From Antedon mediterranea (lineage: Eukaryota > Animalia > Echinodermata): DNA of 64,000 nucleotides. Positions 11,501 through 46,088 of this stretch are shown here, piece by piece. The notes under the pieces are model-generated. The model saw nothing but the letters and a program-made list of their open reading frames with translations, did no database searches and was not told the origin of the DNA. Within the stretch, counting starts at the first letter, position 1. Each line of letters opens with the position of its first letter. Made by a program: the position numbers and the translations under genes. Location of the stretch: NCBI RefSeq assembly GCF_964355755.1, contig NC_092671.1, positions 34,110,304 to 34,174,303 of the forward strand, written 5' to 3'.

Positions 11501-11980
11501 GAGTATGTTCTATTGTCTCTTTTTCAAGTGGTTGTTTTATGCTTTACATTTTTTTTTGTAACTATTTATGGGACTATAAAAATGTGATTTATAAGATTCA
11601 ATTTTTTAAATTTGTAAATATAATATAAGAATTTGTAATTATTAATATCATCCTTTGAATTTGAATGTTGTGCAATTTTTATTGTACTTTTAGTTTAATG
11701 AATTTTACATATATTTTATTGGTGTATAAAAATAATGTGATTATTAATATTAGTCTCTATTTTTTAAAATTGTAAATATTTAAGAATTTGTGCATTTTTT
11801 ATAGTAATTTTAAGTTTAACGAATTATGCAGTAATTATTACTGTTTCATAGGCTTTAATGTGTTTTTTCTTCGTTTAACTTTGTTTATGTAAATTATCAT
11901 TTTCATATGTAAGCTCTTCATTTCAACTATGAGTTGTATTTTGAGTCTTTTTATACCGATTAATTGAAAAATAAATAAAA
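8573..11980 (+). mobile_element. Near full-length Daphne/Crack-type LINE B (APE and RT, frameshifted), inserted antisense in LINE A
   Basis: KRKRGRRAG N-terminus, NARSL/ITESW/GGGV/MGDFN/SDH endonuclease motifs (8594-9702), RT 10160-11467 with WKFVDD; TSD ataac at 8568-8572 and 11981-11985. Confidence 0.9.
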
Positions 11981-13440
11981 ATAACATTTACCCTTCTCAA
12001 CATCTTTGAGCGTAGAGTCAATAAGACTAACAAGATAGTGAGTTGAGGAAGCCTTTTTCCTACTACCAAATTGACGAGAATCTAATTTACCCTTAATATC
12101 TTCAAGAATCCACTTAACAATAAAAGATTCAAATACCCTGGCAAGAATATAGGTAAGGGAAATAGGTCTAAGGTCAGAGACAGAACTAGCATTCGCAGTT
12201 TTAGGAATGGGAACTGCAGTAGCCCTTTTCCAAAGGTCGGGGAAAACACCATCCTTCAATGCATGATTGAAGATATCCGCAACAGGCTCAGCAAGTTCAG
12301 GAGCAAAATCTCTATATAATTTAATAGGGGGTTCATCTGGATGGCCAGCTTTGTTAGGCTTAATATTACAAAGGGCTTTTAGGACCTGACCAGCATGTAT
12401 TAAAGGTGGTGGCCCAGGGGCTGGGAGATAAGCAGGCAAACCGTTTAAATTAAGAGGAGGGATGGCATTACAAACACTAGAGAAATGGGCATTAATCTCA
12501 GAGGCAGTTTCAACTTTGGACACCCCAGGCAAGGTGAAATTAGTATTTTTAGTCTTAAGATTACATAGTTGTTTAATACCTTTATGCCACATGTCAGGGT
12601 TGTTACGTTTAAGACTTAATAAGGAATTACAATAATATTGGTTTTTTGCCTTTCTAATACAATCTTGGACTAAGTTGCGAATTGAACGCCACTCATCCGT
12701 TCTACCAAACCTACGAAACAAAGTTTGTCTAGAGTCAATTAATCTTCGAATCTTGTCGGACATCCAGGGCTTGTCAGCAGTGCGCTTGTTCCTAATCAGT
12801 ACAGGAAAGATCTTAAAAGCACCATTCAAAATTGAAGAGAACATTTTAGTTTTTCGATTGACGTCCTCAATATTCAGCACATCATTCCACTCATGGGTTG
12901 TAACCCATTGACCAAAGGACAAAACAGAGGAGTCACGATATGGCTGAGAACGCACTGATAGACGCTTGTGCTGAGGTAATTCAATCAGTGGTTGCAATAG
13001 AATGGCATTATGGTCACTCCGACCCAGTGGCGCCAAGCGTTCCGGAAGATGGTAAAGATCAGCACGACTAAAAAATATCTTGTCCAACAGGGCATCCTTT
13101 CGCGTAGCGAAGTTAACAAGTTGCGACAGTCCAACATTCACTTCCAGCTCAGCTAGATCTAGGTCATTAAAGTCACTCAAAATAGCAATAGGAGCAGCGA
13201 AATCCATAGAACGAATATTATCAATTGTATCAACAATGTGCTCAATCAACAAATCCGCATTAGCGGCAGACGGTGGATAATAAATAGCTCCAATATAAAA
13301 GTGACTACCTTGATTAGACTTGCCTGGAATAGTTGTCTTTATCCAAAAGCATTCGAAATTACAGCTACCATGTGCAATGCAAGATTCACAGGCAAAATCA
13401 TCACCAACAAAAATAGCAACACCAACGAGAGGCGAGCCAT
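11981..13440 (-). mobile_element. Daphne/Crack-type LINE A, 5' half (APE to RT start)
   Basis: ORF with IYYPP, SDFND, SDH, LRPISLT, QFG; joins the 7524-8567 ORF in frame as KGKC-YVNICATDF. Confidence 0.88.
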
Positions 13441-13521
13441 GATTCATCATTTCAATCTTTATTTGATCATCATCAGGTATCATCCTTATGATGATCAAAT
13501 AAATATTGAAACGTTGAATCA
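13439..13521. ncRNA. Inverted pair of degenerate minimal hammerhead ribozyme motifs (Penelope-type)
   Basis: About 39-bp inverted arms; inferred consensus CCTGATGA-TGATC-aaataaa-GAT(T/C)-GAAA-CGTT. Confidence 0.5.
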
Positions 13522-14275
13522 TGATAATGATTGTTTAAACTAAAATAATTAAAAAGAAATGATTTTACACAATTTTACTGTGTTACAATATTTTAAACAA
13601 TTTTCTAGATTACAAAAAAGTTAATATAGACCTACTATTTTCAAGAACAAACAAAATAGTTTATAGATTTATTACTAAAACTTTTTTTTAAATCGTAAGA
13701 GAATATCAAATGTTAAGCCTGACTCACGATTGAAAAAATAAGAAATCAAGATTAAACTTGCTAATACAAAAATGTTGTAAAATAAAACAAATGCAATACA
13801 TAGCAGTCTGATTGTCAATAGATAATAGAGCAGGTAATGAAAACAATGCAAAACTATTCATACATTATTTATGTAAACACACTAATGAATATAAATACTT
13901 CTTTACAGACAGCGAGAGTAGATCACCTTAATATAATTATGATTAGATAAAGTGTGAAATTTATTATGTAACACTTAAAATTGCAAGTAATAATTAAAGG
14001 CCTTTTATGGTTACCACAAAGCATAACAAAATCAAAATTGCATTTACACATACTTCATGCACCTCAGGAATTGTGGGTGAAATTTCATGTTCTGTATTAT
14101 TATTAAATCTTTCAAATAATTGTACTAATTGTAAAATAAGTTCATAGGTTAATAATTAAACAATAACACAATTATTTAAAATATTTATTTACAAAAAAAA
14201 TTTAATTTTACAACTTTTGACTGTATTTTTGGATCTTTTAGCTAATTGTCAAAATTGTAAAATAAGTTTACTATA

Positions 14276-18990: not shown

Positions 18991-21460
18991 AAAGATGTTT
19001 AAATTAAATAATGTATTAATAATCATTAGGATAGTATTTATTTGAATAGACGCCTCTCCAATAAAACATCACTTTTGAATAATAATCATTATACTATTTG
19101 TAGTAGAATTCAACACACTGTTATCTACAATTTACCAAACATTGTTATTCTTTTTTACTACTTTTCATATCTATTAGAGGATTTCATTTGATTATAAATG
19201 TTACCATATTAATAAAACTAAAAAAAATAACATATATCCCTCGAATAAGCACCTCTCTCAAATGAATTCCGCCTCCCTAAATGGCCCTACAAAAAAATAA
19301 ACACTATACTTTAAAATGTTATTAATCATCTAAAACACTGTGAAACAGAGTAGTTTAGTTTTACGAATGTCAAGCATTTTCCATAATGGTAACCGACAGA
19401 AAACGTACAAGGAGAACATTTTTATCATTCCGAGAACCATCGTCTACACTTCCAAGAGTATAAGATGATGAATAAACTTGCATGTTATGACCAAGACAAA
19501 GCATTAACAAAATGCATTTAGACCTTAGTCCCTCACTATTATGTCTCTGTAACAGTTTGTCACCGTTTGTCACAACTCATCCATTGCATATGTAAACTTT
19601 TTGTAATACAAGTTTGCATGAATGAAAATGACTTAAAGATGCAACACATAACTTTTGTATACAGTAATAATAATTATATAATGAGTAAGAGAAGAACAAT
19701 ACAAACCATCTGGTTATCAATAAATAATAGAGCAGATATTTAAACAATGCAGAATTATATATTACATACTAATGAATCTATAATACTTTTTTTTACAGAA
19801 AACGGCTAAAAATTTAATATTTATTTCAAAGCAATTAAAAGTACAAGTACGGTAGTATAATGAATTATAAATTCATGAATAGACTTATATATTATTATTG
19901 TCAAGACAAAGCAAATACAAATAAAAATTGCATTTAGATACTGTCCTACACCTCAAGAATATTTGTATTGAAATTCATTAATAATTCAAATCTATCAAAT
20001 AATTATGATAATTTTTTACATTCATAGATCCTTATTATTTAAACAAAAAATATTTACAAAAGAAATTATTGTACAGCATTTTACTGTGTTACGATATTTT
20101 AAACAATGGTTTAAATTACAAAAAAAAGTTAATATATCATGTCCATAAGGGATTACGAATTTGTAAGTTACATCCTCCGAAAATTAAATATGCTCGCCCC
20201 GCCATGTTATGTCTTTTGGTTACACTTCAATGCACATCATTCTTTGTCATCGATCGATGAATGTATTCCCCGCCATATCGTTAAAAAGAACTAATAATTA
20301 AAACTAATGTATTAATTTAAATCATTGTATTAATATTAATAATAAATACATAAATTATCATTTATACAAAAAATATTTGCAAAAAAAATTATACTATAAC
20401 TGTGTTAATTTGGTTTTAATTGTAGGCCTATAAATTAAAACAATAAGTTAATATAATATTTTTTTCCAAACACATTTTTTTTAAAGATTGATACTATAAG
20501 TTTTTAAATCATAATAAAATCAAGAGCGTTCAGCATTAATAACTCACTATTGCCAACATAACAAGAAAAAAGATTAAACGTTAATAATATAATAATGTTT
20601 CCTTTACACACTTTCTACATCTGTGAATTTTATTACAACAAACTATTATAATGAAATATATATTGAATGGACTTGCATATTATAATCAACACAAAGCATA
20701 ACAGAATCAAAATTGCATTTCGTACTCCTCAGGAATTATGTACTGAATTTCATGGACTGTAATAGTTTGAATCTTTCAAATACTTATGAAATATATTATT
20801 TAAATTTAGTTATTATTTAAACAAAAATATTTATTTACCCCAAAAAATGATAACATTTTAAATTACAAAATAGAGTTAATATAATAGATCTTTTTTTATA
20901 TATTTTGTTATAGTTATTACTATAACTGTTTAAATCAAGAGATTTTAGCCTGAATGACTCACTATTACAAAAATATTAACAAAATAAAAACTTACTATAA
21001 TGCGAGTGAAAAAAGTAACAATAAATAACATTCTGGTCGTCAATAAATAGAGAAGATAAGTTTAACATTGGAGAACTATTCATACATCATTTATGTAAAT
21101 ATACTATTTTAACAAACAATATTTGAAAAATGAAACTATAAACTGTGTGCTGATTTGGTTATTTGAAATAATTGTATACATTTCTAAAAAATAATAGATT
21201 ATTGTCCAAACACATTTGTTTTAGATTGTTACTATAGTGTTTAAATCATATTGTATAATGTAATGTGCATAATGAAGAGACTTAATACATTTAAGACCAA
21301 ACCATAACATAAAGTAAATAATTTTGTTAAAAATACGCATTAAGAACAATATTTATATATTAAATATTTGAAATAATTTAAAACAGAAAGCAATAGTATT
21401 TTTAATATTGTTTTTAGTTGAAAATAAAATTGAATATTTACACATTACCTTATCTCTTTT

Positions 21461-21916
21461 ATGAGCAGGGCTGAGTTTTCCCAATTGATAGATGAACTTT
21501 CAAGTAGAATTGAAGTGAATGATGTACAGATGCTGAAGGTCACCCTCTATGACATAATCCACGATAAACAGGCATTAGAAGCAGCATCAGCTAATAGTTT
21601 GTTTAGACAATTATATTCAGAAGGTCACATTAAAATTGATTGGTTTTTTGTTGATTGTGATCTGTTATTTGAAGTATTTGAGTTAACAGGACTTCAAACA
21701 CTATCTCAAATATTATCCAAGAAATATCGTAGACCGAGGAATCAACGAAAAAGCTCTACAATATTGAAAAGAGTGATTCTGAAAATGTGTGGAATTTTAT
21801 TAGCAGATTGAATCAAGGCAAAATTGAAGACACTATAGAATCTTTGACGGAATTTGAAGCGCTTCTAAAGGACCAACAAGATTTGAATTATGTACTTACT
21901 ATTGTAAGATCTTTTG
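21461..21916 (+). CDS. ROCO exon: death effector domain 1 and a frameshifted, partly deleted DED2
   Basis: EFSQLIDELS..DVQMLKVTL..LFRQLYSEGHI..DLLFEVFELTG fits the DED helix pattern; after about 21750 a second frame reads KLYNIEKSDSENVWNFISRLNQGKIEDT.. to a GTAAGT donor. Confidence 0.7.
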
Positions 21917-24900
21917 GTAAGTACCGGTGTCATTTGTAGCATCATTATATTTTAGCCAAAAATAAGTCTTATTTTGTTACCGGTTTCAGTCACAATATTC
22001 TTTTTATTTTGTTTATCAAATATTTAAAAAATATAAAGTAATTACCATGAACCATGAGAGTATACAATGTACACAATTGCATGTAGCTCTACACTAAAAT
22101 TTCAATGGTGGTGATATTTAATTGTTACATACACCATCAAATATAATATTTATTTTTATTTTCCAGTGCAGCAGAAGAAACTGAATGATGGTGAGTGAAC
22201 AATTGGTTATGAAATAGTAGTAAATGTTTATATTGATAAAGAAATAGAAAGAAATAGGTCCTAATTGGGGTTTAATGTGTATAATTGTTTTAAAAATTAT
22301 ATGGTGATCGATTTTATTGCTATAATAGTTTTTTTGTTTGGGCCTTAATATTACAAAGCGAAACATGTTCTCTTTCTCTCAAAATCGCCAGGTAAGACAT
22401 CTAAGTAATTTATCATCACGGACAGATAATACAATTTAAATAAACTATATTTGTGTATTGGCTGACTGTATTTTATATTCTGCTTTACTAACAGTATCGC
22501 TTTACAGCAAACTCTCTGCCTTAGACTTTTATCTCTCAAAATTCAAAACCAAAAATATCATACCTATAATCCAGTACTAAATGTGTGTCATTATTTGTGT
22601 CTTTTAAAGTTCCTCTTGAGGTGTTGGCAAGAGGTCAGGAGGCTAATTATGCATTTCTTAATGCCATACAAGAAGGCAGCAAACCTATATACCAAACACG
22701 TCTAATGCTTGTAGGACAAGAGCGTGTAGAAACGAGTCTAACCAAAGCACTCACTGGTCAACCGTAATTAGGCTAATCATTCTGTGCTTTTATGAGTTCG
22801 ATGCAATCAAAACGTCAATTTTATTAAATCAAATACAAATACAGCTGGTACATTATTGCGCAGTACAATTTAAAATAACACTGTATACTTAATATTTGTG
22901 TACAGTCAGAATATTATAAATGTATGTAATCTATATATACATTTACGTAAGGGCAGAATTTGGTAAATCGTAAATAAATTTTGGTTACTTCTAGAATGTT
23001 TGCTCGATGGTACTGTAAAGTTGGTTCGTACTTTCGGTACTGATTTTAACCACCTGATGTAACCCTGTTTCCTAATTAAATTGAGTTAGATAATTAGTTA
23101 TTGACAATTAAAACGAGTTTAGGTTCAACGATTTGCCACAAATAGAAGTGTTTTCCGATCGTGGTATACACTGTCTAATGGATTTCCATCTTGAAAAATA
23201 CCTGCACACAATAATACTGTACGAGGATGCTTCGAATTTCCTCAATAATTGTTTTGAAAATCGGTTGAACAGCTCGAGTACAGCATCTTAATGTTGAAGA
23301 CGGGCCCATTTCCAGTTACTTAAACTTTAAAAGCAGTTTCCTCAAAACACTGATTGTAACAGCCAAAATTTTAGACTTAGATATATCTGGAATATAATTT
23401 TTTCAGCATTTTAAATCTTGGATTATGTAGTTGTAGTTTTTGTGAAAATCTCAATTTTAAAAATTCCGACTTATGTCCCTTGCATGTGCCACATTTACTA
23501 AAACCTATATACTATAAAATATTATTCTTTGAGTGATTTTACTAATCATTGTTACAGCTTGTTGTATTACATTTGTTTAAGGTGTGATAACATACAATAC
23601 TTCCAACATTTATTTAGATTCAATGTTACTGAGGAAGTGACTGATGGAATTGAAGCATCATTGTCATGTACAATTAGTGTTAAGCATACTACTAACTGGA
23701 AACCAAATCAAAATAAAGGTATATTATGCTGTACTTTTATATCTTTCATAAAAATTAAATTTCAAATACAATATGAAGATCCAGATAAGGCTTTAAAATG
23801 TACCAGTAATAATTAATAAGTAAAACAATTTTTTATTGTTTAATTGTTTATTTTTTAACATTATATCTACAAGATAATAATTAAGGTGCAATACTTGGCC
23901 TCTTGTTATAATATAAAATAATTAATCTTAAAGAAAAATCAAAGAGAGAGACTGAACTACAGAAAAATAAATTTAAATATGAAAATTGCAAGAAAAAAAA
24001 GAAAACGCTTCTTTTATAATAATATTATATAAAGTTGTTGTTAAATGTGTACAGCCATTGTATTTCTGAAGTCTATATAATGGAAGAACTAGAATAAATT
24101 CAAAATTGTTAATTAAGATTCTTAAAGCAAATATGGCCAAAGCTTTAACAAAAATTTTAACAAATCCAAAACGGATGCTTTGGATGTCAGATTGCCTGGT
24201 AGGTCTATATTTATTACGCAATTTTCCACTCAACAACCCAAAAATGAATTTTTTAAATACATGCCAGATATGAAAAAATATGCTGTTTTGAATCCCTACA
24301 TATGTCATAGCAGTTTTGGTAATTTGTTAATTTATCACATATGGATACCTTTTTATAGACTACATGACAAATCAGTGTTTTATGTCAATTTATGGGTGCC
24401 AGATTTAGGGTAAAAGAATGCCAGATATTAGTTAAATTATGCCATATTTGTTAGCATCAGATGACAGGTGCCAGAAGGGTCACAGTTATGCGAAAAAACA
24501 TAATTACGACAAATTTTGTCACATTGCTTGCTGCACGCTTTTGTAATCGACTTTATAGAACAAATGAACTTTCCATAGCTATGGTTATCATCACTTAGGT
24601 TACTGATGTTTATTATTTCTAAAGATTCATTTCCCACCTGAATATTAGAGATTGGAAAGGTGTATATACGTAAATAGCTAAATTCATGGTGACAAATGTA
24701 TGCAAAGATTAAACCTTGCATTACTTTGTACTATTTACAGAATTGAATAAAGCAAGACAAGAATATATAAGTGCTCTTGCAGAAAACATTGTAACAGATA
24801 TTTTGCAGGATAAAAAAGAGAAGCAAGATGAGGTTAGAACAATATGATTAAGATGATCACAACTATACATTTAAACAATACTTTTGAATCAATATGTCAT

Positions 24901-27900
24901 TGTCTTCTAATTATTATGTCATGGTTTGCAATATACAGAGGTTAAGAGAAGATGACAAGAAAAAACAAGAAAATAAAGTGAGTGGCACTATTGCTGAACC
25001 AGAAGAAGCAAGTCCAATAAATTCCTCACACAAAGGTATGCAGTCTCTTTTTTGGGCCTTACCATGTTTTAAGGTAAATCTCTTATTCAGTAGTCTTGTG
25101 TGGGTTGATTGATATCACCACACATTCACTGTGGTAGGTAGAATTGCAATACAGATTTTGTCAATTTGTTTTAAATAATTTTGTTTTAATGTTTATAATA
25201 TAATGTGCATAATCTTCATCATATCTCAAGTAATGTCTATTGTGTTTAATGTCCTGCAAAATAGGGGTTTGGCTGTAGTGTTAAAGCATTATTTTCACTC
25301 CTTTCTTTAATGGGAAAAGTGTCCCCTTAATAGGAATGTTCCCTGATTATGTGTGTCCCAAATAAGTTTACCTGTAGTTAAAAATAATGAGTGCACACAT
25401 TAAACAACTTATTTATAAACATTCAAATGTCTCCATTTCTGTTTTTCTGTTCGATAGAGAAAAAAGGTGAAACATTGATTGAAAGAGTCATAAGAGCTGT
25501 TCGGAAAAAAATCATGAGGGTTTTGCCGATGGAAAGAAAAAAAGAAAAACATCAGGTTCAAAATTCAAAAGAATTTTACAAAAGAAGAAGAAATTGATAA
25601 CAGGAGGTGGAAATCTAGAACGTACCTAATACAGTTACAAACATTTAACCATTGCCTCCTCCACCCTTCGTCTTTGGTTTATTTAGTGTGTACATAATAA
25701 ATGACTTCTCTAATTTCAGTTTAAATCATTTATGTAGTGTTTTTAGAGAGAACAATTAATATTAAATCTGTGGTATCAGTATTACAATTATGTAGCAACT
25801 TCTTTAAACAAAAATTGTTTGCAGCAACATGTTAATCACCTTAGAACCTACATCGTGCTAAATGTACACAACACTTTATATTTATACAATGTATTAAATA
25901 AATGTATATTTGATTCGATTGTTATTACATATTAAATGAAGAACCCTGGTGCTTAACTATCCTTTGGCATTGATCTGTCACTTAATCTAATATCAATCAA
26001 GTTCATGTTGTAATTGGTTATTTTGCTTATTGAATTCCCATTTTCTTTTTTACTGTATCTTTATTGTATTTTGATTTTGATTATACAGAAATCAAGAGAA
26101 ATTGGGAGCAATATAGAGGAACATGAAGATTTTGGTATGAATTTGAATGGAATTAACATCTATTTTAATAGAGTAGTTAAACAATAATTATATGTAAATA
26201 CATGTGAATAGGATATGTATCATAATGTATATGTATAGTTTAATTTAGCATATTCATGTCATCATTATCCACAAGTTAGAAGTTGAGAAGTTATGAGTAG
26301 CTTTATGGTGTGTATAACATATAATTATTAGGAAAGACATGACATGCCTAAAGTATTACATCATGAATATTGTTCAATTATAAATTTATCAGCAGGTGAC
26401 GAATCTTCACTAGTCAAGCCTGCTACATCAATGACACAGGATATTCAAGAGAAGGTTCAAGAAGAGGTTCTTGAAATTGTTAAAAACATGTTTGAAAAAA
26501 AGAAATTGCAAGTAGAGAAGGATTTGTTGGAAAAGAGTGAAGAGTTACAAGAGACAATTGATGATCTGACTCTCAGCATCTGGGATTTTGCTGGACAAGA
26601 TCTTTATTACATTACTCACCAGGTAGTCACGGTCATATAGGCTGTATATGTTTTTCTTCAAATTATTAGCCCTCATTTTTTTAACTTCAGATATTTAACT
26701 GACCAGAATTCAAAATTAGGACAACTAATTCATTGTGCAAAATAAATTTAAAATGCCAGTGCAGGTCAGTTATTTCTAAGCTGATTTTATATAGTCCAGT
26801 TGATATATTGGCATCCATTAAAACTCTGTAGTTCCTTAAAATTTGAAATATTGAATTGAATATATATATATATATAAACTTTAATTAGACACGAGACTGA
26901 TGTGCAGTACAACTCATTCAATCAATAGTGATTGTTTTTACACAAGTTCGTGATATTACAAAAATACCAACACCATATAAATACGACAAAAAAAAGACAG
27001 AAAAAATTGAAATTGAACACAATGAATATTAAGGCAGGCTAAATTCCTATTTATACAAAAATAAAATTTATATAAAACATCCATGTCTATAAACTGAACT
27101 GGTTCAAATATCTGATCAGAAAAAGCTAATTCACTTATGTTTGTGTTTTTTTCATGTTTTCATGTAATTGTTTACATTTTTTTTTCTTAATCAAGTTAAG
27201 AATATGGGAAATTATTGCTTATTTAGTAATTATATTAAGTTGATTTTTTTTCATAGATGTTCTTGGTATCCCGTGCTATTTACATCATCTGTTTCAACCT
27301 CTGTCATGACCTCAATGCCCCATCTAGAGTAGAGGTTGTTCATAGAGATAATGGGAAGGTAGGTACAGATATTTCAAACAATAATTTGAAGAAATAGTTT
27401 ATTTCAAACAATAATTTGAAATAATTGTTTGATTTTATATATGTGAACTTTCTCTATGCAAAATAAATTTGATTTAATTGAACATAAAGTTATTTGACTT
27501 TGAGATTATATTGATAATAAGTGCATTTATTAATCGAGTAAGATTAACTAGTTTTAGTAACTTAACTAACATGAATTGTAGAGATTATGTTTAATAAAAG
27601 TAAAAGTGATACTATTATTTTATTTTGAATTGGCTTAAACCATATTTACTGCATCTTGCATAAGTTTATGGGGAAGTTTAGTATTTGTTATTATAACTTT
27701 CTACAATTATGTAACTATTGTTTAACATTGCATAGATTTCAGATGCTGACCACTATATGACCAACTTGGATCGTGTGCTTTTCTGGTCACATTCAATCTA
27801 CTCAAATACCAGTACAACAGACAATCCAGTGTCAAACCTGAAACAACTTTCACCGCCTATATTTATTGTGGGCACTCATAGAGAAAGTCTGCCAGGCAAT

Positions 27901-30900
27901 GATGAAGAGAGACAAGTTCTTGTGAGTATGATATTTAAGCTTCTACCATTAGGAACCAGCATGGGCAAACTTTATTTACATTATTTGCATTAAACATAAT
28001 AATAATAATAATAATTTTTACATCCATATTGTTATTTTGTAGACTGATGAAAAGTTTTCACTATTAAAGCAAGCATTTAAGGGGAAACCATATGCAGGTC
28101 ACATTGTGTTCAAGTACTATGCCATTGATAACAGTATCAGGTCACCATTGGATAAATCCATTATTGAACTTAGAGATCATATCACAGAGGTGACTAAGAA
28201 TGAACCATATATGGGCGAGAAGATGCCATTAAAATGGTTGAATTTCTTGCATGAAATTGAACAAATACGTGCACAGAATGAACACTCAATTACCTTCAAG
28301 CAGGCAAGTATAATTTATGTATGTACACCATAAGGGATGGATATACTACCCTGTGGAGGAAAAATAATTTTGGTAGTTATTGCTTTTGTCATGAACAGAA
28401 AAAAAGAGATAAAAGAATGGTTTATAATGTTATAATCCAGTTTAGTTCTTCACTTTTTGTAACAAAATCCAGGTAAATGAGCTGTTTCCAGTTCACAGTT
28501 CATTTAGCAGCATGCATCACATTTACCTCTGTAAGTTGGAACAGAGGCAAGCAATAAAAAGAGCGGTTTTTTTGAAAACACAATTGTAATCAAACATGTT
28601 TGTTTCCATGTGTGATGATGTATTTTGTTCACTTCCTTTTCATAGTTACTTATCTTTTTTAGTCAACATTTTATTTTTGTTGGTAGGTACCAATTCTCTA
28701 AATGTTTATGTATTTGATTTTATATGTTGCTTATATTTGAATTGTGTATTCAAATTTCAGGTAAGCAAACTAGCTTCCAAGTGTCATATCACTAAACGGG
28801 ATCAATTGTTTGCTATGTTGCATTTTCATCATGACCTTGGTAACATAGTTTACTATGGAGAACGAGATGCAGCGGATAGCGCCCTCAATGATATCATCAT
28901 TATAATACCGCAATGGTTGATTTTCATTTTCAAGCTAGTTATCACAGTTAAAGATTCTTCAGATCAAGTATGAGATTTTTATTTATTTTTATTTACTGTA
29001 TTTGTGTTGGAATAAAGATTTTTTATTTCTGCGAAATATACATTTAACAAGTCCTTAACTCAAAGGTTCACCTAATATATTTTGGCTGATATTATAACTT
29101 TTCGTAATTATCAGTCAAAATTGTAAAAACATAATTTTTAGCAGCCTAAAGCGTGGTTCCCACTAGCGACGCAACGCAAGGACGTAACGCAACGCAAGTG
29201 AATTGACCAATCACAAGCGATGGCTTATTCGCTTGTGATTGATAACTGTCTATAACTTCGCTTGTCATTGGTTAAAATGCTTGCGTTGCGTTTACGTCCT
29301 AGTGGGAACCAAGCTTTATAATACCATTTATTTTTTCAATACTGTCTGCTTGCATAAGTAAGTTGTATACTATTTAAAGATGTATTGTCCCTTTGACTAA
29401 TTTCAAAAAAATAAAGATTTAAAAAAAAGTGGGTCATTTTGAAGTATCATAATAGTTATTAGCTTTCACCAAAAATTAGTCGAAATAAAAAAATCATTTA
29501 ACTGAAATACAGACGTTTTTTTGTTCAAAAAATAACATTGACTTCCATTCAAAGTTTTTGATCAAAACATATCTCATAATGCAACGTGCTTGTTTGGCTA
29601 CTCTGTATGCATAATCTTAAAACTTCCTCGCGATCTGTGTGAAAACACCTTCTCAACCGTGACGAGTTGTAAACAATCCTAATTAGCATCATGCATAATG
29701 CATACTCGTGTTTTGTAATCTTTGTTTACTTTTGCTCACGACGATTTTCCAGACGAAATGTAATAAATTAATTTACCTGTTAATTACGTAAACTTTTTGT
29801 TTTTGGCTCAAATTTTCGACTTAAAGTGAATTACTTTGATATGGCCAATTTTAATTTAGAATATTTTGACCTTCATTTTTTGTGTTTCAATGGACAATAC
29901 ATCTTTAAACTCTATTTTACATTATTTTTAATCCTGCTTTTGTAGTGGGCAGAGTTTAGAAGCTCTTGGGAAAAACTTGATAAAGAGGGTGTCCTAGAGG
30001 TGAGACTACTTAGACGTATGTGGCAAGACTTTCTTGAGAAATTTGAAGCATTGTTAGAGCTGATGCAGAAGTTTGACTTACTGTGTGTCAAGACTCAAGC
30101 AATTAAGGTATAGTTAGGGTAGCGGTGAAGAAAATGTTCTGCATGGTTTTAAATCATTTGCTTCACAGAATTATGTAAATATATAGCACCCAATTCAACC
30201 AAGAAGCATCAATAGTATGTTAAGATAATTATTAATAATGCTATTATAACTATCAAAAAGGCAACAGGTACTGAAGACAATCGCCTCTTCTATGTGCCAT
30301 CACTACTAAAGAAGAATGAAGGTGATGAACTGGTGTCTCTCGAGAAACTCACAATGTCAAAGACTGCTGCAGATCTTTACGTTGACTTTGCTGGTTTCCT
30401 ACCTGAAGGACTGTACTATCGACTCGTAGTAAGAATTGTACATTGGTCACAACAGAGGAAGCTTGATGAGGGATATAATCCTAGGCTCTTTTACCAGCAG
30501 GTGAAAGTATACATTGATCAGAATCATGATGCAATCATCAGGATCCTGCCTGAAAAAAGATCTTGTATCCAGGTAGGCTAGCAATAGTTACAACAAGAAT
30601 ATGCATGTTTTAAATCCTAATAACTAAAGTCTTTTAACTGAAACTCCAAACAAATATTTCTTTTCATCCAATCTATGAATGATGAAATGATTTAGATCAT
30701 TAAAAGTCATAGGAATTGTGATTTGTTTTTAAAACCAATTAACTTTCTTTTTGACACAAACTATTTGTATTGACAATTAAACTATTGGATGTTTTAATTA
30801 AAAGTAATTTAATTGATACACATGGTTATTTAAATAATAATTATCGTCTCAATCAAGTTATCATCAGAATACACAACGCAAAGTCCAATATTTCTTTATA

Positions 30901-32209
30901 GGTTGTTATTTACAGACTTAAAGTGGGCGGTACACAGCTTGAACCATCTCCACGTGTCTGCAAAGAGGTATGTGTTGGATTACAGCTCTTTTTATTTGAA
31001 TGTTCTAGAGTATAAATTGAAAGTATTTTAACAACAAAAAAGTAGACTGCAAGTAAAGGCATTTTGTGTGTATGTTAGCTTAAACTTAAAACCAAACAGT
31101 AATATATCAATGCATTTTCTTAGGTTAAACTTAAAACAAAAAACAAATACCTTCCAATTATACCTTAGCTTGTATTTCTGATTTACAGGTACTTAAACTC
31201 ATTGAAGCAAATCTACTGGACATTGGTCACAAATGGATGAAACGTGTTGTGTCTAACGTATGTGCTCTGTGCAACGTCTGTCCTATGGAGAACATCCACT
31301 TGCACAAACTAAAAGATTGCATGCAGTCTACGCCTCGATGTGGGCCAGATGAAGGAATGGATACTTCCAAAATCAGACGTTTGTTTGCAAATCACAAAAC
31401 AAATCCAGGTACTGCATGAAACCATTCTTGTTCAGTAATATGTCACAGGTACCATGTAACACGTTTCTTTTTAAATTGTTGTATATAATAAATCAATTGA
31501 CTATGATTAAAATGGGTCCACGTATAAATCGGGTACTAAAATGAGTCTCAGTGTCTATAATTTCCCTGGAATCATAGGGAAATTTTGTCCAATATTGTCC
31601 TACCTTCACATGATATACACACGCTGCTTGTGATACACATGTGACACACGAGAGATGATGTATTACGGAATTTGCCCATAACATTGGACAAACAATGAAA
31701 TATTGAGAAGCAGTACTGATAATTGGGTTTCTCAGTGGCATATTCTATTGTTATCTATTTTTCCCCAAAACAATTGTCTTAAATATAACAAAACATTGAA
31801 GTTAATTATAAAAAAATAATTATTTTGTATTATTTCAGCTTTCCAGGCCACTGCTACTCAAGGAAACTCAAATGTTCCAGGGTTTCTGCGATTTCTCATT
31901 GGCATCTATAAAGACATTCCATCACCAATCTTGCCATTAGAAGTTATGACACAGATTTGTGTTCGTCTGGACCCTCTTCGCTCAACAGACTACAATGACT
32001 GGCGTGGCGTAGCATGTAAGGTTGGCTATGATTGTTACATAGACTACATCATGAGCATGAGCTGTGTATCAATGATCAATAGCCCTACTATGTGTGTAAT
32101 GCATGGATGGTATGAGAAAGGTTTGTCATTGAACGATTTTAAGGAGTGTATGATTGAAATGAATCGTCATGATGTTGTAAGTATAATTGATGAACATCTT
32201 AACCTGTAA
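21461..32209 (+). CDS. Spliced DED-DED-ROC-COR-death domain ROCO gene (no LRR or kinase), with P-loop deletion and DED2 frameshift; possibly a pseudogene
   Basis: Exons with AG/GT (one GC) boundaries, phase-consistent except the uncertain 25555 donor: 21461-21916, 22167-22190, 22610-22763, 23618-23718, 24741-24832, 24939-25035, 25458-about 25555, 26089-26134, 26396-26622, 27257-27358, 27736-27921, 28043-28303, 28761-28967, 29946-30107, 30261-30572, 30902-30967, 31189-31408, 31839-32209. ROC motifs RLMLVGQERV(GK)TSL, TDGI, IWDFAGQDLYY, IVGTHRE. COR motifs MPLKWL, LHFHHDLG, PQWL, MQKFDL, FYVPSLL, FLPEGLYYRL. AATAAA at about 32290. Confidence 0.85.
22610..22763 (+). CDS. ROCO exon: pre-ROC helix and G1/P-loop
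   Basis: VPLEVLARG..AIQEG..RLMLVGQERVETSL. Confidence 0.85.
22930..23310 (+). mobile_element. Helitron-like element copy 3 (intronic)
   Basis: Similar to 2507-2885 with the A|TC start. Confidence 0.65.
23308..23494 (-). mobile_element. DNA transposon end fragment (paralog at 43810-44020, +)
   Basis: atgtggcacatgcaaggga..ataagtcg terminus, similar in style to the 14276 element TIR. Confidence 0.55.
26396..26622 (+). CDS. ROCO exon with ROC G3/switch II
   Basis: LTLSIWDFAGQDLYYITHQ. Confidence 0.88.
29150..29315. mobile_element. PIF/Harbinger-type MITE (intronic); decayed relative at about 35800-35900
   Basis: TIR agcgtggttcccactag / ctagtgggaaccaagct, flanked by TAA and TTA. Confidence 0.8.
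29378..29904. mobile_element. Kolobok-like MITE (intronic)
   Basis: TTAA TSD at 29374-77 and 29905-08; TIR agatgtattgtcc / ggacaatacatct. Confidence 0.8.
31839..32209 (+). CDS. ROCO last exon: MyD88-like death domain
   Basis: LPLEV..ICVRLDP..NDWRGVACKVGY..SPTMCVMHGW..LSLNDFKECMIEMNRHDVVSII. Confidence 0.85.
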
Positions 32210-33227
32210 AGATGGATGAACAAAGTAGAATGATGAATAACAGTTTACTGTATTTATTCAGAGAGTTATGTAGAATCAAAATCAATTCTAATAAATTTTA
32301 TAAACTCAAAGACACATCTTTTCAAACAGAAGCTTAACTCAAGAGACACATTTCTAAAGAATCCAAATATTGATATTGATTTATATATACATTCCGCTTT
32401 AATGTTTAAATGTATTTTTCAACTAATATTGTTTGAATATATTGAAATAAGCAATGAAATTAATATGCAAATCTTACAAATATTATTATAATTTGAGAAA
32501 CAATAATGAAACAAAGTACTATAGGCACTGCAGCACTAGGTTGTGAAGTTGCAGTGAAAATACATAAGAGAAAATATTTATGAGAGTACTGGTTCTGGTT
32601 TAATGAAATTAAATCACTTCTTCGGAGCTTGAGATGCCGGTAAAATCCAGAAACTAATTTGCATAACAAACTTTGTTTCACAAAAATATCTTCACTAATA
32701 GTTTGTACTTAACTTCGAATAAGGATTTCTTACAAAACATCGTCTATTTTAACTAAAACTTATAACTTAACTAAATCAATCATTCTGTTTAGTATGTGTT
32801 AGATTTCTATATTTTCAAATAAGAAGCAAATAATACAAGTATCACAATGTGTTTTTCAAGGATATTATCACCCATGATTATATTGGTAAGTAAATGTATA
32901 ACCAGCTTTTGTCTGTAACTTTACATAACCAATGTTTGTGTATAAGTTTATTATCTTATGTGTCCCATTACATTAGTACTACTGTTAGATTAGTTGCATT
33001 AGTTGTAAACATTAGCTTAAAAAAATACTTTCCAAATTGTTTTAAAACAGTATTGCAGGCCCGTAACCAGGGGGGGATCGGGGGGATCGTATGATCCCTC
33101 CCCCCCCCCCCCCCCCCGCTGAACAGCGAGTTCCGCTTGGCCTCCCACTTTTTTTTTTGCTGGGCATACTAACACAACACGACGATTGTTCACTACAGGC
33201 CTAGTCAAGCCTTAATAAATTTAATTA

Positions 33228-36814: not shown

Positions 36815-37749
36815 GCGATTTTTTTTTCGTACATAAGTTGGGGACCCCCTCATGAAACGTCACAAAATAAACATGAATAATTCATCTGTTAAATTTTCTT
36901 GTTCCGTGTGCACCCAAGCGTATAGCAACAAGAAGTGATTACACAAGTGCGGTACGATTCTAGGCCTATCTCCGCTGTTGTTGCGGCGTGCGATTTCATA
37001 GAAGAATAGCGGCGTTTTGTGTGGATTGTCGAAATAATCAGCCTTTAGTTTATGGTGTTTTTAATATAATTTATTACTAAAGAATTACGTGTTAAAACTA
37101 TAGTTTCTTCTATTAATACTATTAGGTCTAATTATTAGTCTCTAAACCCATGTCTATTCTAGTAGTAGTAGCTGTGTGGGTGTGTGTGACGTGTGTGTGT
37201 TAGGTATGACCAAAGATAGTTACACTTACTATCTTTGGTATGACACAATCCGAGTAATAAGTCAGCAAAATTAAACAATAAACATTACACAAAAATACAT
37301 TTTTTATTCTCGTGGGTCAAATCTTCCCATCTCATGTGTTCATATACGCGCATTTTTAAAATTCCTTTGAGTACATGCATATTGTTTGATAATAAAATAG
37401 CAGAATTAAAAAAATACAGTACACAAATTATACACATTCTTTATTCTTGTGGGTCTAAGCTTTCTTTGGGCTATGTCCAATGAATTACTACTTAGTTTAA
37501 TGTCTTGCCTAGCTGTCGATTAGCCTCGACACATTTTGTGTGAAGAAGAGTGTGCGAGGGCAATCACGTGAATTGACTTGGAATCCTAGGCCTGCTGTAG
37601 AAAGTATCGTATCGCAGTTGTGTAATCACTTCTTGTTGCTATACGCTTGGGTGCACATGGAACAACAAATTTAACTGATGAATTATTCATGTTTATTTTG
37701 TGACGTTTCATGAAGGGGTCCCCAACTTATGTACGAAATAAAAAATCGC
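36815..37749. mobile_element. Mutator/MULE-like MITE (935 bp) inserted in Tx1 ORF1
   Basis: About 145-bp TIRs starting GCGATTTTT; 9-bp TSD gaacgggca at 36806-14 and 37750-58. Confidence 0.85.
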
Positions 37750-39010
37750 GAACGGGCAAACAGTAAACAAAGAACGTAGTGTAGTGAAGCCAATCTTTTT
37801 GAAGGCTGATCAAATACCAACAGGAAAAAGCTTTTTCAAAGATGAAGACCTATGTATAGCCCTACTAAAAATAATTGCTGCAGAAAGTATAATCGGTGTT
37901 CAAAAAATACGGAACCTATGGCGAATTTATCTAAATAATAGAAATGATAGAGTGAAACTAATTACGAATGGACTAAACATTAGGAATTGTAATATTACAA
38001 TTCATGATAAAAATCCTTATTTGGCATACAACAACATGGAAACAACGAGAATAGTCATAAAGGATATACCATTATCGGTTGCTGACGTAGAGATTGCTAG
38101 CAAGTTGAAAGCGCTAGGATGCAAACCAATAGGAGATGTTACAAGGCTAAAAATAAGGGTTAATGGTCAATTAACCAGCTGGCTAAACGGTGACAGAGCT
38201 GTCGTTGTAGAAAAGCTAAAATCGCCAATACCAAGACAGATAATAATAAATGGTTTTAGAGCACGGGCTTTTCATGACGGTCCGGAAGTGAAATGCAACA
38301 AAATTAATGTACAAGGACTGGGCATTTAGCTTTTCAATGCAAAGCTGATATAATCTGTTTCAAGTGTCATTTACCAGGGCATACTAGGGACAGATGTAAT
38401 GTTGAAGCGCATAATGTTTTTAACTTTGAAAACCCAAAAAATAATAATGCTAACGATAACCACTACGGGAAAAGAGCTACGGTACAATTTGATACAAAAA
38501 CACATGATGAAGTGTTAGTATTGATGAAAGTAGTGAATCATCAGATGATGAAAATGCGCAGAAAGAAACAAGTGTGATCACTATAGAACAACACACAAAC
38601 CAAAATGAGCAGGAAGATGATGACAGAGAGGAGCAGAGAGAAGAGCAGGAAGTGGACGAAAGAGAGGAGGAGGAAGTTGAAGAAGGAGAGGAACAAGAAG
38701 TACCGGGAAGAAAGAACCAGAAAGCTGAAGAAAGAGAGGAGCAGGAAGTTGGGGAAGGAGAGGAGCATGAACAGAAGAAGGTAACTGACTACTTTGAAAA
38801 AAGTATACAAAAAACTAAAAGTGTTAGCACAAACAAGAAAGCAGTGAGAGATCTGAAGGAACAGTCCGGAAATGAAGGCAGGACAGAAGTAAAAACAAAG
38901 AGTATTGAAAAAAGAAGTTTAAGAAAGAGAAACAAAAACAAGTAATTTAATCTTAATAATATGTATTCTAAATATTGTAATTTCCCTAGGAAGCTCTTTA
39001 CTCTAATCTT

Positions 39011-42000
39011 ATGAATTTACATTGTATAACACTAAGCGTTAGAGGAGCTAGAAATATAAATAAGCAACATAAGCTATTCCAATGGGTAAAAGATCAAAAA
39101 GCGGATATATGTCTGCTTCAGGAAACCCATCTAACAAATGAGATTATTAATAAATCAAACTTTGTTTGGGAAGGTGAAGCGATCCATAGTATAGGTAATT
39201 CACATAGTAGAGGAGTGTCGATACTATTACGAAAAGGTCTTGAATGCAAAATTGTTAAAAAGTTAACTGATATTGATGGAAGATATATATTTCTTAATTT
39301 AATGATAAATGAAAAGGAATTGGACATTATAAATATTTTTGCTCCTAATGAAAGCAAAAATAGAAGTGCATTCTTTAGGACCATACACAAATGTTACAAT
39401 GACTTTGATGGAGGGAAGGGTAATTCTATCATTCTAGGTGGAGATCTGAATTGCATCATGAATAGTGACATTGACCAAAAAGGTAGCGCAAATAGGTCTG
39501 ATAAATCTGTTTTTACGATTAAAAACCTAATGAAAAATTTAAATTTAAATGATATTTGGAGATCCAAAAACATGAATAAGCGACAATTTACGTTGCGTAA
39601 GAGATTTAACAACATTTTCCGTAGGCTGGATTACTGGTTAATATCAGAAGATCTCTTTTCAAATGGAGATGTTTTAGCCTGTGACATTCGTCCAGCTATT
39701 CTCACAGATCACCAGGCGGTATCAATTAAAATAGATTTGCATGAAAAAATACGCGGTCCTGGTTTATGGATGTTCAACAATAGCTTTCTGAAAGATGAAA
39801 TATTTACAAAATTAGTAATTAAAATAATTGATGTTTCAATACTAAAAAATAATAGAGAACCTGTAAGTGCAAGTTTGTTATGGGAGCTTGTAAAAACAAA
39901 AATAAAAGAATTTTCAATAATTGCATACGGAAAACAAAAAAATAAAAACCAGAATAAAAAGAAAGAAAAATTACAAAAACAAATAAAAAACTTAAATGAA
40001 ACAATTATGAATACTCAAAATTGTGATATAACCATTGAAAATAAAATTGAAAACAAAAAAATAGAGCTTGAAAACATTTATATGTAGAAGCAAAAGGCGC
40101 GCAAATTAGGTCCAGAGTAAAATGGATCGAGGAAGGCGAGCGGAATACAAAATACTTTCTTGGGTTAGAAAGATCCAAAAGTAAAAAGAAACACATAAAA
40201 AGTTTAATTACTAAAGACGGGAGCTTAGCAACGAGCCCAATTGATATTTTAAAGGAACAAATACAACATTTCGAAGGTTTTATACGCAAAAAATGTTATA
40301 AACCCTGGAAAAATTAATAAATACCTTTGTAATTCTATTATAAACAAGCTTTCAGAAATAGAAAAAGAAATTGTGAAGGTTACGTCACTATTGATGAATG
40401 TAAAAAGGCCATTTCAATGATGGAAAAAAATAAAAAACCTGGATCGGATGGTCTAAGTGTTAAATTTTATGTGTTCTTTTGGAATAATATTAAACATTTA
40501 ATTTGCGATGCGTTAAATGAAAGTTATAATTCTCAAGAATTATCCTTGTCGCAAAAACGAGGTGTAATCACCCTTTTGTTCAAGGATGGAGAAAGAGATA
40601 ATTTGAATAATTGGCGTCCCATTACCCTCTTAAACACCGATTAAACAATTCTTGCACATGTATTAAGTAACAGACTTAAAATGGTTATTAAATCAATAGT
40701 AAGTTCAGACCAAAAAGGTTATATAAAATGCCGTTTCGCTGGTGAAAACATTCGGTTAATAGAAGACCTGCTTTATTATACAGAGTGTAATGATATCGAA
40801 GGGGCAATAATTACCGTAGATTTTAAGAAGGCTTTTGACTCTATTAGTAGAGATTTTATGTTCAATGTTCTAGAAAAGTTTAACTTTGGAATGTTTTTTT
40901 GTAACTGGATAAAAGTATTATACAATAACGTTGAAAGTGTCACAGTTAACAATGGTTGGGTTTCAAACAATTTTAAAATGGAAAGAGGTATTAGACAAGG
41001 TTGTCCTCTATCTGCTCTGTTATTCATTTTAGTGGTTGAAGTAATGGCATCTAGAATAAGAAACAAAGATGACTATAAGGGTATTAAACTTCCAAATAAT
41101 GAAAATAACATAGAAGCTAGAATAAGCCAATTAGCAGATGAAACTGTTTTGTATGTTGGTAATGACAAAAGTATTAAGTCAGCAGTCAGTGTAATTGAAC
41201 GTTTTTGTGAAGTATCTGGAATGACACTAAATAAAAAAAAAACCAATGCTTTTTGGATTAGTAAATGGAAGAACAGAATAGATAGATCTTTAGAATTAAA
41301 TTGGGTAAAACACCCGATCAAAATTGTAGGCATATATGTAGGGTATAATACAGAAGAATGTACCAGAAAAAACTGGGATGTTAAATTAATAGAGCTAGAA
41401 AAGACTTAATAATAAGAATAATAATCCTGAAAAATCTTGCACTATCTAAATTAACATATGCTGCAAATATCACTGATGTTCCAAAATATGTATATACACA
41501 AGTTACAAATCTAATATATAATTTTATTTGGAACAATAAAAGGGAAAAGATAAAAAGAAAACTCTAATTGGTGATGTTGAGATGGGAGGCATTAAAATGC
41601 CTGATTTTACTCTTCATGTTAACGCACTCATGTGTGGCTGGTTAAAAAGAATTATGAATGATGATGGTGCTGAATGGAAAAATATTCTAATGTATTATAT
41701 TAAAAAAATATGTGATGTTAATGTTTTACTTAATATGTCATGTTATAACATTATTGATGTTAATTCTGATAAAATTCCACTGTTTTACAAAAATATGATA
41801 AAGCCAACATAAATTATAACAGAATCTCTAAAAAAAAAACTGAAACTTATAACGATATAATGAATGAACAACTGTGGGGAAACCACTATGTTAAACTAAA
41901 AAAAAATCGCTTTTCTACAAGCATTGGATTGACAGTGGCATTATCAGTATTAAAGACATTGTTAATAAGAACACTTTTTTAACATCAAACGAAATACAAT

Positions 42001-42700
42001 GTAAAACAAACTGGTTAAATGAGTATTTGTGCATTATTAAGGCAATACCAATTCAATGGAAACGTATTATTAAGGAGGTAGATATTTTCAATTGTGATGA
42101 TAATGATGAATTAGTTGGGACCAAGTATGAGATTAATACTACCAAACTAATATACTCATGGTTTGTGAAAGAATATTTCATTATTCCAATGTCACAACTA
42201 AAATGGGAAGAGTACTTCAATGATAACAACATTGATTGGAAAACTTCTTGGTTACGGAAAGTATGTAAAATGAAAGATAAGAAACTAGCACAATTCAATT
42301 ATAAGATGTTACATAGAATACTGCCTACCAACAAACGGCTGTATCAGTGGAAAGTTAAGGAAACACAAACGTGTGACAAATGTGGAGAAATTGAAAATGA
42401 AAATCATTTGTTTTTTAGTTGTAGATTTATTCAGAAATATTGGAGGAAAATGCTTAGTATCTTTGTAAGTTTAAATCACAATAATATATCATTTAAACAA
42501 TTAGTACTAGGAACGGGAGATAAGCTAATAGATTATATTTACACTTTTGCAGCATTTACTATTTATAGAATAAAAATGTTATCTGCACAGTGGGTAAATC
42601 TTCATGGAATTCATTTAAAAGCAATATGTTATATAACATTGAGTGTGAAACATATAACAATAAAGAAACAAGTATAGAAAAATGGGTAGCTTTAAGAAAT
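39011..42700 (+). pseudogene. Tx1 ORF2 (APE-RT-zinc finger) with multiple frameshifts and stops
   Basis: ORF pieces at 39011, 40417, 40681, 41582 and 42027 are colinear with a Tx1 ORF2. Confidence 0.88.
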
Positions 42701-45645: not shown

Positions 45646-46055
45646 TATCGTTAATAAATCTATATCTATCTATATCTCTGGAAATTCTGGACCTAGTGAG
45701 ATAATTTTGGTGTCAAATTGTTCACAATGTATATGTTTATATTAGCTCTAACAGAACTTTCTTTGTAAAATTGACCGGAAACCCCATTTTTAGCAATTTT
45801 GACCTTTTACCTCTTTTTGCTATATCTAAGCAACGGCAGGTCGGAGAGAATTAAAAAAATAGGAGCAAATTGTTCCCAAGATATACATTTATATTCATTG
45901 TAACAGATGATATTGCTTGAAAATGACCGGAAGTGTGGTTATTAACCCTTGACATAATTGAATAAGGTTATAAAAACATAAATTAATAAATATTTTTGTG
46001 GATTTTTACTTTTATGTTAAACCAAGACAACAAAAAGGAATGAAATTACCTTCGT

Positions 46056-46088
46056 GACGTTTCGCCGACAATCTGTCAGCTGCTTCAG
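46056..46088 (-). ncRNA. Minimal hammerhead ribozyme motif in the Penelope terminal repeat
   Basis: CTGAAGC-A-gctgaca(gat)tgtcggc-GAAA-cgTC. Confidence 0.7.

What the first reader, a model, noticed from the sequence alone, without database searches (positions are those of the whole stretch)
21461..32209. ROCO protein bracketed by two different death folds: DED-DED-ROC-COR-DD
Seen: tandem DED-like N-terminus, ROC G-motifs, COR, a Cys/His-rich segment (CALCNVC..H.H..C..C) and a MyD88-like death domain, with no LRR, ankyrin or kinase in the assembled exons. Established: vertebrate ROCOs (LRRK1/2, DAPK1, MFHAS1) lack DEDs; DAPK1 has ROC-COR-DD; FADD bridges DD receptors to DED caspases such as caspase-8. 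Inference: a FADD-like adaptor with a built-in GTP-dependent dimerisation switch, i.e. a candidate invertebrate innate-immune or cell-death signalling module parallel to NLRs. Death-fold ROCO expansions are known in some invertebrates, so the novelty of this exact architecture needs a search.
Basis: partly seen in the sequence, partly recalled or inferred. Interest (0 to 1): 0.85.

Follow-up and report, generated by a model that had tools for sequence, protein, structure and literature searches.

The report
Broken feather-star double-death-fold ROCO gene
This feather-star gene joins a caspase-8-like pair of death-effector domains, an LRRK2-type GTPase and a death domain, but this copy carries a frameshift and lacks its GTP-binding lysine, so only its intact sister genes would likely work, most likely as untested immune or cell-death signalling adaptors.

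Summary
The architecture is real, but this copy is broken. Eighteen exons with canonical splice sites encode tandem DED, Roc, COR and DD. The gene is 89% identical to an intact Antedon mediterranea protein (P0001); three full-length paralogs share the layout. P0001's N-terminus models as a caspase-8-type tandem DED (Z 17.8). A spliced contig from a close copy joins the DED exon to the P-loop exon.

A 76-nt deletion in DED2 gives a stop after 116 codons. A 3-nt deletion removes the P-loop lysine kept in 157 of 157 homologs.

Other corrections: the DD is closest to UNC5B's, not MyD88's. The Cys/His stretch is the end of COR-B. DED2 lacks the FL phenylalanine that caspase-8 chains need.

The family is one branch of a crinoid ROCO expansion that swaps DED, DD, Macro, ankyrin, TAZ/KIX and HEPN modules. 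Death-fold ROCOs are in print for other invertebrates; this layout was not found. The scan noted sister ROCO branches on other pieces of this genome. Function is untested. Verdict: new variant of a known kind.

The parts
21461..21916 (+). Exon 1: DED1 (intact, about 21467-21730) and the C-terminal half of DED2 (21754-21916, out of frame with the ATG). An unlocated upstream exon is possible: AG at 21467-21468 lines up with acceptor-like sequence in a paralog.
21751..21752 (+). Breakpoint of a 76-nt frameshifting deletion (P0001 codons N98-K123, the N-terminal part of DED2)
   Evidence: contigs of other individuals carry extra sequence here
21809..21811 (+). Premature TGA after 116 codons, 105 nt upstream of the first exon junction; predicted NMD target
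   Evidence: NMD rule recalled
22167..22190 (+). Exon 2 (24 nt), DED-Roc linker
   Evidence: GT..AG joints on both sides in a run X9 contig
22610..22763 (+). Exon 3: Roc alpha0, beta1 and P-loop (G1 at 22714-22734) with a 3-nt deletion near 22728-22730 (GQERVGKT to GQERVET)
23618..23718 (+). Exon 4: Roc G2 region (TDGIE at 23640-23654)
24741..26134 (+). Exons 5-8 (24741-24832, 24939-25035, 25458-25555, 26089-26134): charged, partly helical and partly disordered insert between G2 and G3; the most variable region among paralogs
26396..26622 (+). Exon 9: end of the insert and Roc G3 (WDFAGQ at 26581-26598)
27257..28303 (+). Exons 10-12 (27257-27358, 27736-27921, 28043-28303): Roc G4 (THRE, 27871-27885), G5 region (28118-28135) and start of COR-A; GC donor after 28303
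28761..30967 (+). Exons 13-16 (28761-28967, 29946-30107, 30261-30572, 30902-30967): COR-A and COR-B
31189..31408 (+). Exon 17: Cys/His-rich C-terminal end of COR-B; only 50 of 74 residues identical to P0001
31839..32209 (+). Exon 18: linker and death domain (about 31934-32200), closest by sequence to UNC5B DD; stop TAA at 32207-32209

Best explanation
This gene copy has a frameshift and no P-loop lysine, so it is likely a null allele or young pseudogene of a small Antedon family whose intact members likely act as nucleotide-switched death-fold adaptors in immune or cell-death signalling. Shown: the exon structure, both lesions, intact paralogs with the same layout, tandem-DED and Roc-COR folds, splicing of DED to Roc exons in a close copy, and a mosaic relation to P0001. 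Inferred for the intact proteins: (1) Roc-COR cycles between dimer and monomer with nucleotide load, as in other ROCOs, and so controls how many tandem DEDs and DDs are presented together; (2) the tandem DED binds the related tandem DEDs of other crinoid ROCO and NB-ARC proteins rather than extending vertebrate-style caspase-8 chains, because DED2 lacks the FL phenylalanine; (3) the UNC5-like DD passes the signal to a DD partner. The protein has no enzyme effector and no repeat sensor of its own, so it would be a relay. Birth, recombination and loss of copies would explain the broken copy here.
For: Lesions: (P-loop Lys present in 157 of 157 homolog rows and absent here). The 116-aa product is not in the protein collection. 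Intact layout in P0001, P0003/P0007 and P0008; P0002 lacks the DD as modelled. Four models have neighbouring accessions (XP_071941107 to XP_071941112) on one 40.9-Mb scaffold, which suggests a tandem cluster. Folds. Splicing. Mosaic: 733 of 773 residues identical to P0001 in exons 1-7 and 10-16, against 139 of 190 in exons 17-18 (Fisher p 4e-16), although the tDED is the less conserved part among paralogs. Related tDEDs occur on crinoid ROCOs with ankyrin, TAZ/KIX or ZU5 and on an NB-ARC-TPR protein. Death-fold ROCO expansions are proposed as immune genes elsewhere (PMC4104024, PMC9334734, PMC5094078 passages; PMC11378527 abstract).
Against: No functional data exist for any member. No expression-after-challenge data were seen. 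The excess of window-specific changes at conserved sites (20 against 11 in P0001) is not significant (p 0.15), so relaxed selection is not shown. The lesions were not seen in any listed contig of other runs (tables were cut), so they rest on this one assembly. G4 reads THRE rather than THxD (21 of 200 rows have E, 105 have D), so guanine-nucleotide binding by intact paralogs is assumed, not shown. The direction of signal flow is a guess.
Confidence: 0.55

Rival explanations
1. The intact paralogs are FADD-like bridges: the DD binds an upstream DD receptor and the tandem DED nucleates a caspase-8-like chain.
For: Two different death folds at opposite ends; the tDED superposes on caspase-8 tDED; a ROC-caspase fusion exists in an annelid (PMC11463336 passages), so ROCOs can be wired to caspases.
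Against: DED2 has K-L or K-I at the F122/L123 site in the four paralogs aligned, and this site is needed for chain formation in human caspase-8. The RxDL motif is also degenerate. FADD has one DED. The last tDED profile search returned no caspase among 9 hits, which is weak evidence.
Confidence: 0.2
2. The intact paralogs, or the 116-aa DED1-only product of this copy, are cFLIP- or PEA-15-like brakes that cap DED chains.
For: cFLIP and vFLIP tDEDs are among the top structural matches. The chain-extending FL site is degenerate. DED1 of this copy is intact and aligns weakly to PEA-15 (E 0.19).
Against: The stop lies 105 nt upstream of a junction in an 18-exon gene, so the transcript would likely be degraded (NMD rule recalled). 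The rest of the gene keeps a 969-codon open frame, which fits recent loss rather than long use as a short decoy. No contig showing the lesion in RNA was listed.
Confidence: 0.13
3. The lesions are assembly errors and the gene is intact.
For: Over the P-loop site all laid depth in X1, X3 and X9 differs from the window, and where indel rows are shown it carries three extra bases. Contigs of X1, X3, X5 and X9 run into extra sequence at 21751.
Against: These runs differ from the window at many fixed sites (best share of words 0.61), so they are likely other individuals. The other 3.1 kb of coding sequence has no further frame break. A 76-nt and a 3-nt deletion are not typical homopolymer errors (own knowledge).
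Confidence: 0.07
4. The protein is its own sensor: the roughly 160-aa insert in the switch-I region is a bait that pathogens cleave or bind, which triggers the death folds.
For: The insert is the least conserved region among paralogs (mean identity 0.49) and sits between G2 and G3. G1-G3 spacing is 222 aa against 47-52 in LRRK-type hits.
Against: A long insert is typical of the whole clade (median spacing 180 in 123 proteins). It is E/K-rich and partly disordered, so low constraint explains the variation. No dN/dS test was possible.
Confidence: 0.05

Closest known systems
DAPK1 (vertebrate ROCO with C-terminal death domain; PMC6337361 passages)
   Same: Roc-COR followed by a DD, no LRR
   Different: No kinase or ankyrin here; an N-terminal tandem DED instead; a long insert inside Roc
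Invertebrate NHR-Roc-COR-DD-TIR gene ('neuralized PATS1'; noted in PMC5094078 and PMC9334734 passages)
   Same: Closest non-crinoid BLAST relatives (29-34% identity over about 82% of P0001); same split Roc, COR with Cys/His end and collinear DD
   Different: NHR instead of tDED and a C-terminal TIR. A separate clade in an unresolved polytomy, so descent from it is not shown
Crinoid Macro-Roc-COR-DD proteins, including Anneissia DED-Macro-Roc-COR-DD (P0010) and DD-Macro-Roc-COR-DD (P0011)
   Same: Sister clade (11 rows, SH-aLRT 99); same Roc-COR-DD; P0010 already brackets the core with DED and DD
   Different: Macro-domain region in front of Roc; a single, more canonical DED; database models only, not characterised
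Trichoplax ROCO expansion (at least 17 genes with CARD, DD, TPR, LRR; PMC4104024 passages)
   Same: Lineage-specific ROCO expansion with death-fold modules
   Different: No DED named in the passages read; different phylum
Caspase-8 / cFLIP tandem DED and FADD
   Same: Same tandem DED fold (Z 17.8, rmsd 2.5 A, 167 residues)
   Different: 18% identity; FL and RxDL motifs degenerate; fused to a GTPase rather than a caspase; FADD has one DED and no GTPase

Membership tests
ROCO proteins | Roc domain directly followed by COR | tested here: met
   Pfam Roc and COR-A above cut-off in P0001; model matches LRRK2 at Z 30.4 and M. barkeri RocCOR at Z 27.3
ROCO proteins | Intact G1 P-loop (GxxxxGK[ST]) | tested here: not met
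   Window copy reads GQERVET; intact paralogs meet it
ROCO proteins | G3 DxxG and G4/G5 motifs | tested here: inconclusive
   G3 DFAG present; G4 is THRE, with E in 21 and D in 105 of 200 rows; G4-G5 vary in ROCOs
ROCO proteins | GTP binding, hydrolysis and nucleotide-dependent dimer cycle | not testable with these tools
   Needs biochemistry
Tandem-DED proteins (caspase-8/cFLIP type) | Two packed six-helix DEDs | tested here: met
   For intact P0001: pLDDT 87.6, Z 17.8, profile E 6e-7. The window copy has lost part of DED2
Tandem-DED proteins (caspase-8/cFLIP type) | Exposed DED2 FL motif and RxDL motif | tested here: not met
   K-L/K-I at the FL site and no RxDL in the aligned paralogs
FADD | Single DED plus DD and nothing else | tested here: not met
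   Two DEDs and a 700-residue Roc-COR lie between the death folds
FADD | Binds a DD receptor and recruits a DED caspase | not testable with these tools
   No crinoid caspase or receptor sequence was fetched
MyD88-like adaptors | DD plus TIR | tested here: not met
   Stop follows the DD; no TIR in P0001, P0003 or P0008
MyD88-like adaptors | MyD88-type DD | tested here: inconclusive
   Best PDB sequence hits are UNC5B DD (E 0.0013 single, 1.3e-7 profile); the DD was not folded and searched alone
DAPK1 subfamily | N-terminal kinase and ankyrin repeats | tested here: not met
   None found in the exons scanned or the paralogs
NLR / STAND receptors | NACHT or NB-ARC ATPase with a repeat sensor | tested here: not met
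   The core is Roc-COR with no repeats; any likeness is in logic only

The most novel reading that the evidence does not exclude
Feather stars run an NLR-like sensor-helper network built on ROCO GTPases. Diversified sensor ROCOs (ankyrin-, TAZ/KIX- or ZU5-bearing, ending in a tandem DED) recruit, through a crinoid-specific tandem-DED code, this tDED-Roc-COR-DD helper, which converts the DED signal into a DD signal and swaps its DD cassette by recombination between copies.
Probability: 0.18. Interest if true: 0.8.

Novelty: new variant of a known kind. Interest (0 to 1): 0.45.

Why it matters
Most ROCO proteins have no known function, and crinoid immunity is almost unstudied. A small ROCO with no kinase and a death fold at each end is a simple system in which to test whether Roc-COR alone can gate death-fold assembly, which bears on DAPK1 and LRRK2. 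If it pairs with the tandem-DED-ending ROCOs of the same genome, it would be an animal parallel to plant sensor-helper NLR networks. The copy in this window is broken, so experiments should use the intact paralogs.

Tried and rejected
No whole genome is held for this window, so paralogs were counted only from protein databases. No holder run is on record as RNA; X9 is a guessed RNA run whose contigs show splice joints. A two-copy prediction of the tandem DED gave no answer (score 0.00, alignment not used) and is not used as evidence either way. The ESM Atlas gave DED-cluster leads at 0.86-0.88 for residues 1-185 (below 0.9, a lead only) and no usable hit for the DD. A single-sequence PDB search with DED1 gave only non-significant hits, led by protein G fusions. 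Foldseek on the tDED model had no hit at E <= 0.001 (best 1.9e-3; all listed rows were caspase-8, cFLIP or vFLIP). MyD88 was not among the 3 hits or the 60 of 79 rows shown. No second ROCO copy, free tDED or upstream exon was found in the 64 kb. My first idea that the family descends from the NHR-Roc-COR-DD-TIR gene was dropped to 'related', because the tree leaves it unresolved; the careful tree did not finish and the quick tree has SH-aLRT support only (60 rows chosen by hand from 220 fetched proteins plus the window). The Cys/His segment as a separate zinc-finger domain was rejected, since it aligns within COR-B; metal binding was not tested. No dN/dS test was possible because no paralog DNA was available. 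Two artefact rows (the X junction and the P-loop gap) were dropped before the 20-against-11 count. No supplementary files were read; tables in PMC5094078 and PMC9334734 might list related layouts. Older ROCO surveys in subscription journals are outside the library.
Full report
OBSERVATION. Reading 20500-32499 and fixing exon borders against homologs gives an 18-exon gene from ATG 21461 to TAA 32209, with 16 GT-AG introns and one GC-AG intron. Pfam on 11 exon stretches found DED (E 0.0019, below cut-off), Roc, COR-A, COR-B and Death, and no LRR, ankyrin or kinase. One exon used as a query returned six Antedon mediterranea proteins, so the window comes from a feather star close to that species. 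The best, P0001 (XP_071941109.1, 1081 aa), matches 933 of 1052 aligned residues. No other copy lies in the 64 kb.

THE COPY IS BROKEN. After codon 97 the window lacks 76 nt, the 26 codons N98-K123 of P0001 less two bases. This removes the start of DED2, shifts the frame and gives TGA at 21809-21811 after 116 codons, 105 nt before the first junction, which by the recalled NMD rule predicts decay. Downstream the frame is open for 969 codons. In exon 3 the P-loop reads GQERVET where paralogs have GQERVGKT; the lysine is present in 157 of 157 homolog rows. Contigs of other runs show extra bases at both places: all laid depth at the P-loop site in X1, X3 and X9 differs from the window, about a quarter of X5's depth is not accounted for in the rows shown, and the tables are cut. 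These runs appear to be other individuals (best share 0.61), so the lesions are neither confirmed nor refuted. A null allele or young pseudogene is the most likely reading. Window-specific changes at conserved sites outnumber those of P0001 by 20 to 11, which is not significant (p 0.15).

THE ARCHITECTURE IS REAL IN PARALOGS. P0001, P0003 (isoform P0007) and P0008 are full-length tDED-Roc-COR-DD models; P0002 and P0006 are shorter models with the same N-terminus. Four have neighbouring accessions on one scaffold. A contig of run X9 with 6 differences in 117 bases carries the joints 21916|22167 and 22190|22610 with GT..AG ends, and so links the DED exon to the P-loop exon. Another X9 contig joins exon 17 to exon 18. 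These come from close copies, not provably from this one. A seven-sequence tDED profile hits caspase-8 across both DEDs at E 6e-7. The AlphaFold model of P0001 residues 1-183 has pLDDT 87.6 and matches caspase-8 tDED at Z 17.8, rmsd 2.5 A over 167 residues, followed by vFLIP and cFLIP. The full model (pLDDT 78.3) matches LRRK2 at Z 30.4 over residues 181-960 and the C. tepidum COR over 615-958, which places the Cys/His stretch at the end of COR-B; similar Cys/His patterns occur across the clade. The DD passes Pfam's cut-off, and its best solved relative by sequence is the UNC5B DD.

DETAILS THAT BEAR ON MECHANISM. In human caspase-8 the DED2 F122/L123 motif is needed for DED chains (PMC3477315, passages). 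The aligned site is K-L or K-I in the four paralogs aligned, and it is also degenerate in the other crinoid tDEDs. Roc has an insert of about 160 residues between G2 and G3, encoded by exons 5-9; such an insert is typical of this clade and is the most variable region among paralogs. G4 is THRE. A bacterial Roco is dimeric with GDP and monomeric with GTP (PMC5714945, abstract), so the direction of the switch is open. The window copy is a mosaic relative to P0001: 95% identical in exons 1-7 and 10-16, 73% in exons 17-18 and 69% in exons 8-9. Because the tDED is less conserved than the DD among the other paralogs, exchange between copies explains this better than rate differences. Which copy is the recombinant is not known.

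FAMILY CONTEXT. A quick tree of the Roc-COR core (60 rows, SH-aLRT only) puts the window with five Antedon proteins (100), sister to crinoid Macro-Roc-COR-DD proteins (11 rows, 99). One of these, Anneissia P0010, already has DED at the front and DD at the end. This group sits in an unresolved polytomy with a conserved NHR-Roc-COR-DD-TIR gene of hemichordates, echinoderms, amphioxus, molluscs, a nemertean and a flatworm, and with a second crinoid clade. In that clade related tandem DEDs follow COR (P0103 with TAZ-KIX, P0111 with ankyrins, P0117 with ZU5, P0131, P0143) or flank it (P0120). Related tDEDs also occur four times in front of Roc in P0210, which was not in the tree, and on an NB-ARC-TPR protein. 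The last tDED search found 9 proteins, all from A. mediterranea, among 7989 candidates scored; that search is word-limited, so the range may be wider.

MECHANISM. Shown: anatomy, folds, lesions, splicing in a close copy, family shuffling. Inferred: intact members are relays without an enzyme or repeat sensor, in which the Roc-COR nucleotide cycle sets the clustering of tDED and DD; the tDED most likely meets its crinoid-specific relatives, and the DD a downstream DD protein. The FADD-like and cFLIP-like readings remain open. The two-copy complex job gave no answer.

WHAT IS KNOWN. ROCOs with death folds are in print: at least 17 Trichoplax genes with CARD and DD (PMC4104024, passages); anemone kinase-Roc-COR-DD-TIR and its neuralized form (PMC5094078, passages); Aplysia MyD88-like ROCOs (PMC9334734, passages); an Owenia ROC-caspase (PMC11463336, passages); brown-algal ROCOs as candidate immune receptors (PMC11378527, abstract). 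A 'neuralized pats1' transcript is listed as strongly down in infected clams (PMC4769524, one table passage). I also read passages of PMC8195603, PMC6321704 and PMC6337361; the UNC5 papers were seen as a listing only. Searches returned no paper on DED-bearing or crinoid ROCOs; the library lacks most subscription journals. The intact proteins are public RefSeq models named 'uncharacterized protein'. Earlier notes of this scan describe ankyrin- and TAZ/KIX-bearing Roc-COR-DED genes on other pieces of the same genome; I confirmed such layouts in database proteins but took the 'sensor' reading from those notes.

VERDICT. A real and apparently undescribed domain combination within a known kind of invertebrate death-fold ROCO, represented here by a disabled copy. 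New variant of a known kind; interest 0.45.

Noticed in passing
window 21461-21490: The ATG region lines up base for base with acceptor-like sequence in a paralog contig (loose end at 21491), and four paralog models have 20-30 extra N-terminal residues. The gene may have an upstream exon; none was found.
   Followed up: partly
window 28304-28305: GC-AG intron after exon 12.
   Followed up: partly
window 22805-23606 and 28820-30022: Very high-copy repeats inside introns 3 and 13 (summed depth up to about 10^6), including a 121-bp imperfect palindrome at 29179-29300; MITE-like by appearance.
   Followed up: no
window 3673-13534, 37742-42677, 45157-48021, 51752-54219: Many reverse-transcriptase ORFs, several broken: LINE-like, a Penelope-like ORF at 46090-48021 (-) and a Gypsy-like RT-RNase H at 52734-54219. 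Labels are from recalled motifs, not from a search.
   Followed up: no
P0013-P0037, P0040, P0083: A conserved NHR-Roc-COR-DD-TIR gene across hemichordates, echinoderms, amphioxus, molluscs, a nemertean and a flatworm; the name 'neuralized PATS1' occurs in only one library paper.
   Followed up: partly
P0120, P0210, P0222: Antedon models with tandem DEDs at both ends plus a hydrophobic C-terminal tail (P0120), four near-identical tDED repeats before Roc (P0210), and NB-ARC-TPR with a C-terminal DED (P0222).
   Followed up: partly
P0009-P0012, P0024, P0025: Macro domains fused in front of Roc-COR in crinoids and, on a separate branch, in a brittle star; possible ADP-ribose sensing.
   Followed up: no
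fetched Roc proteins: The G4 aspartate varies widely in this clade: D in 105, N in 36, E in 21 and G in 7 of 200 rows with TH at the start of the motif or otherwise.
   Followed up: no
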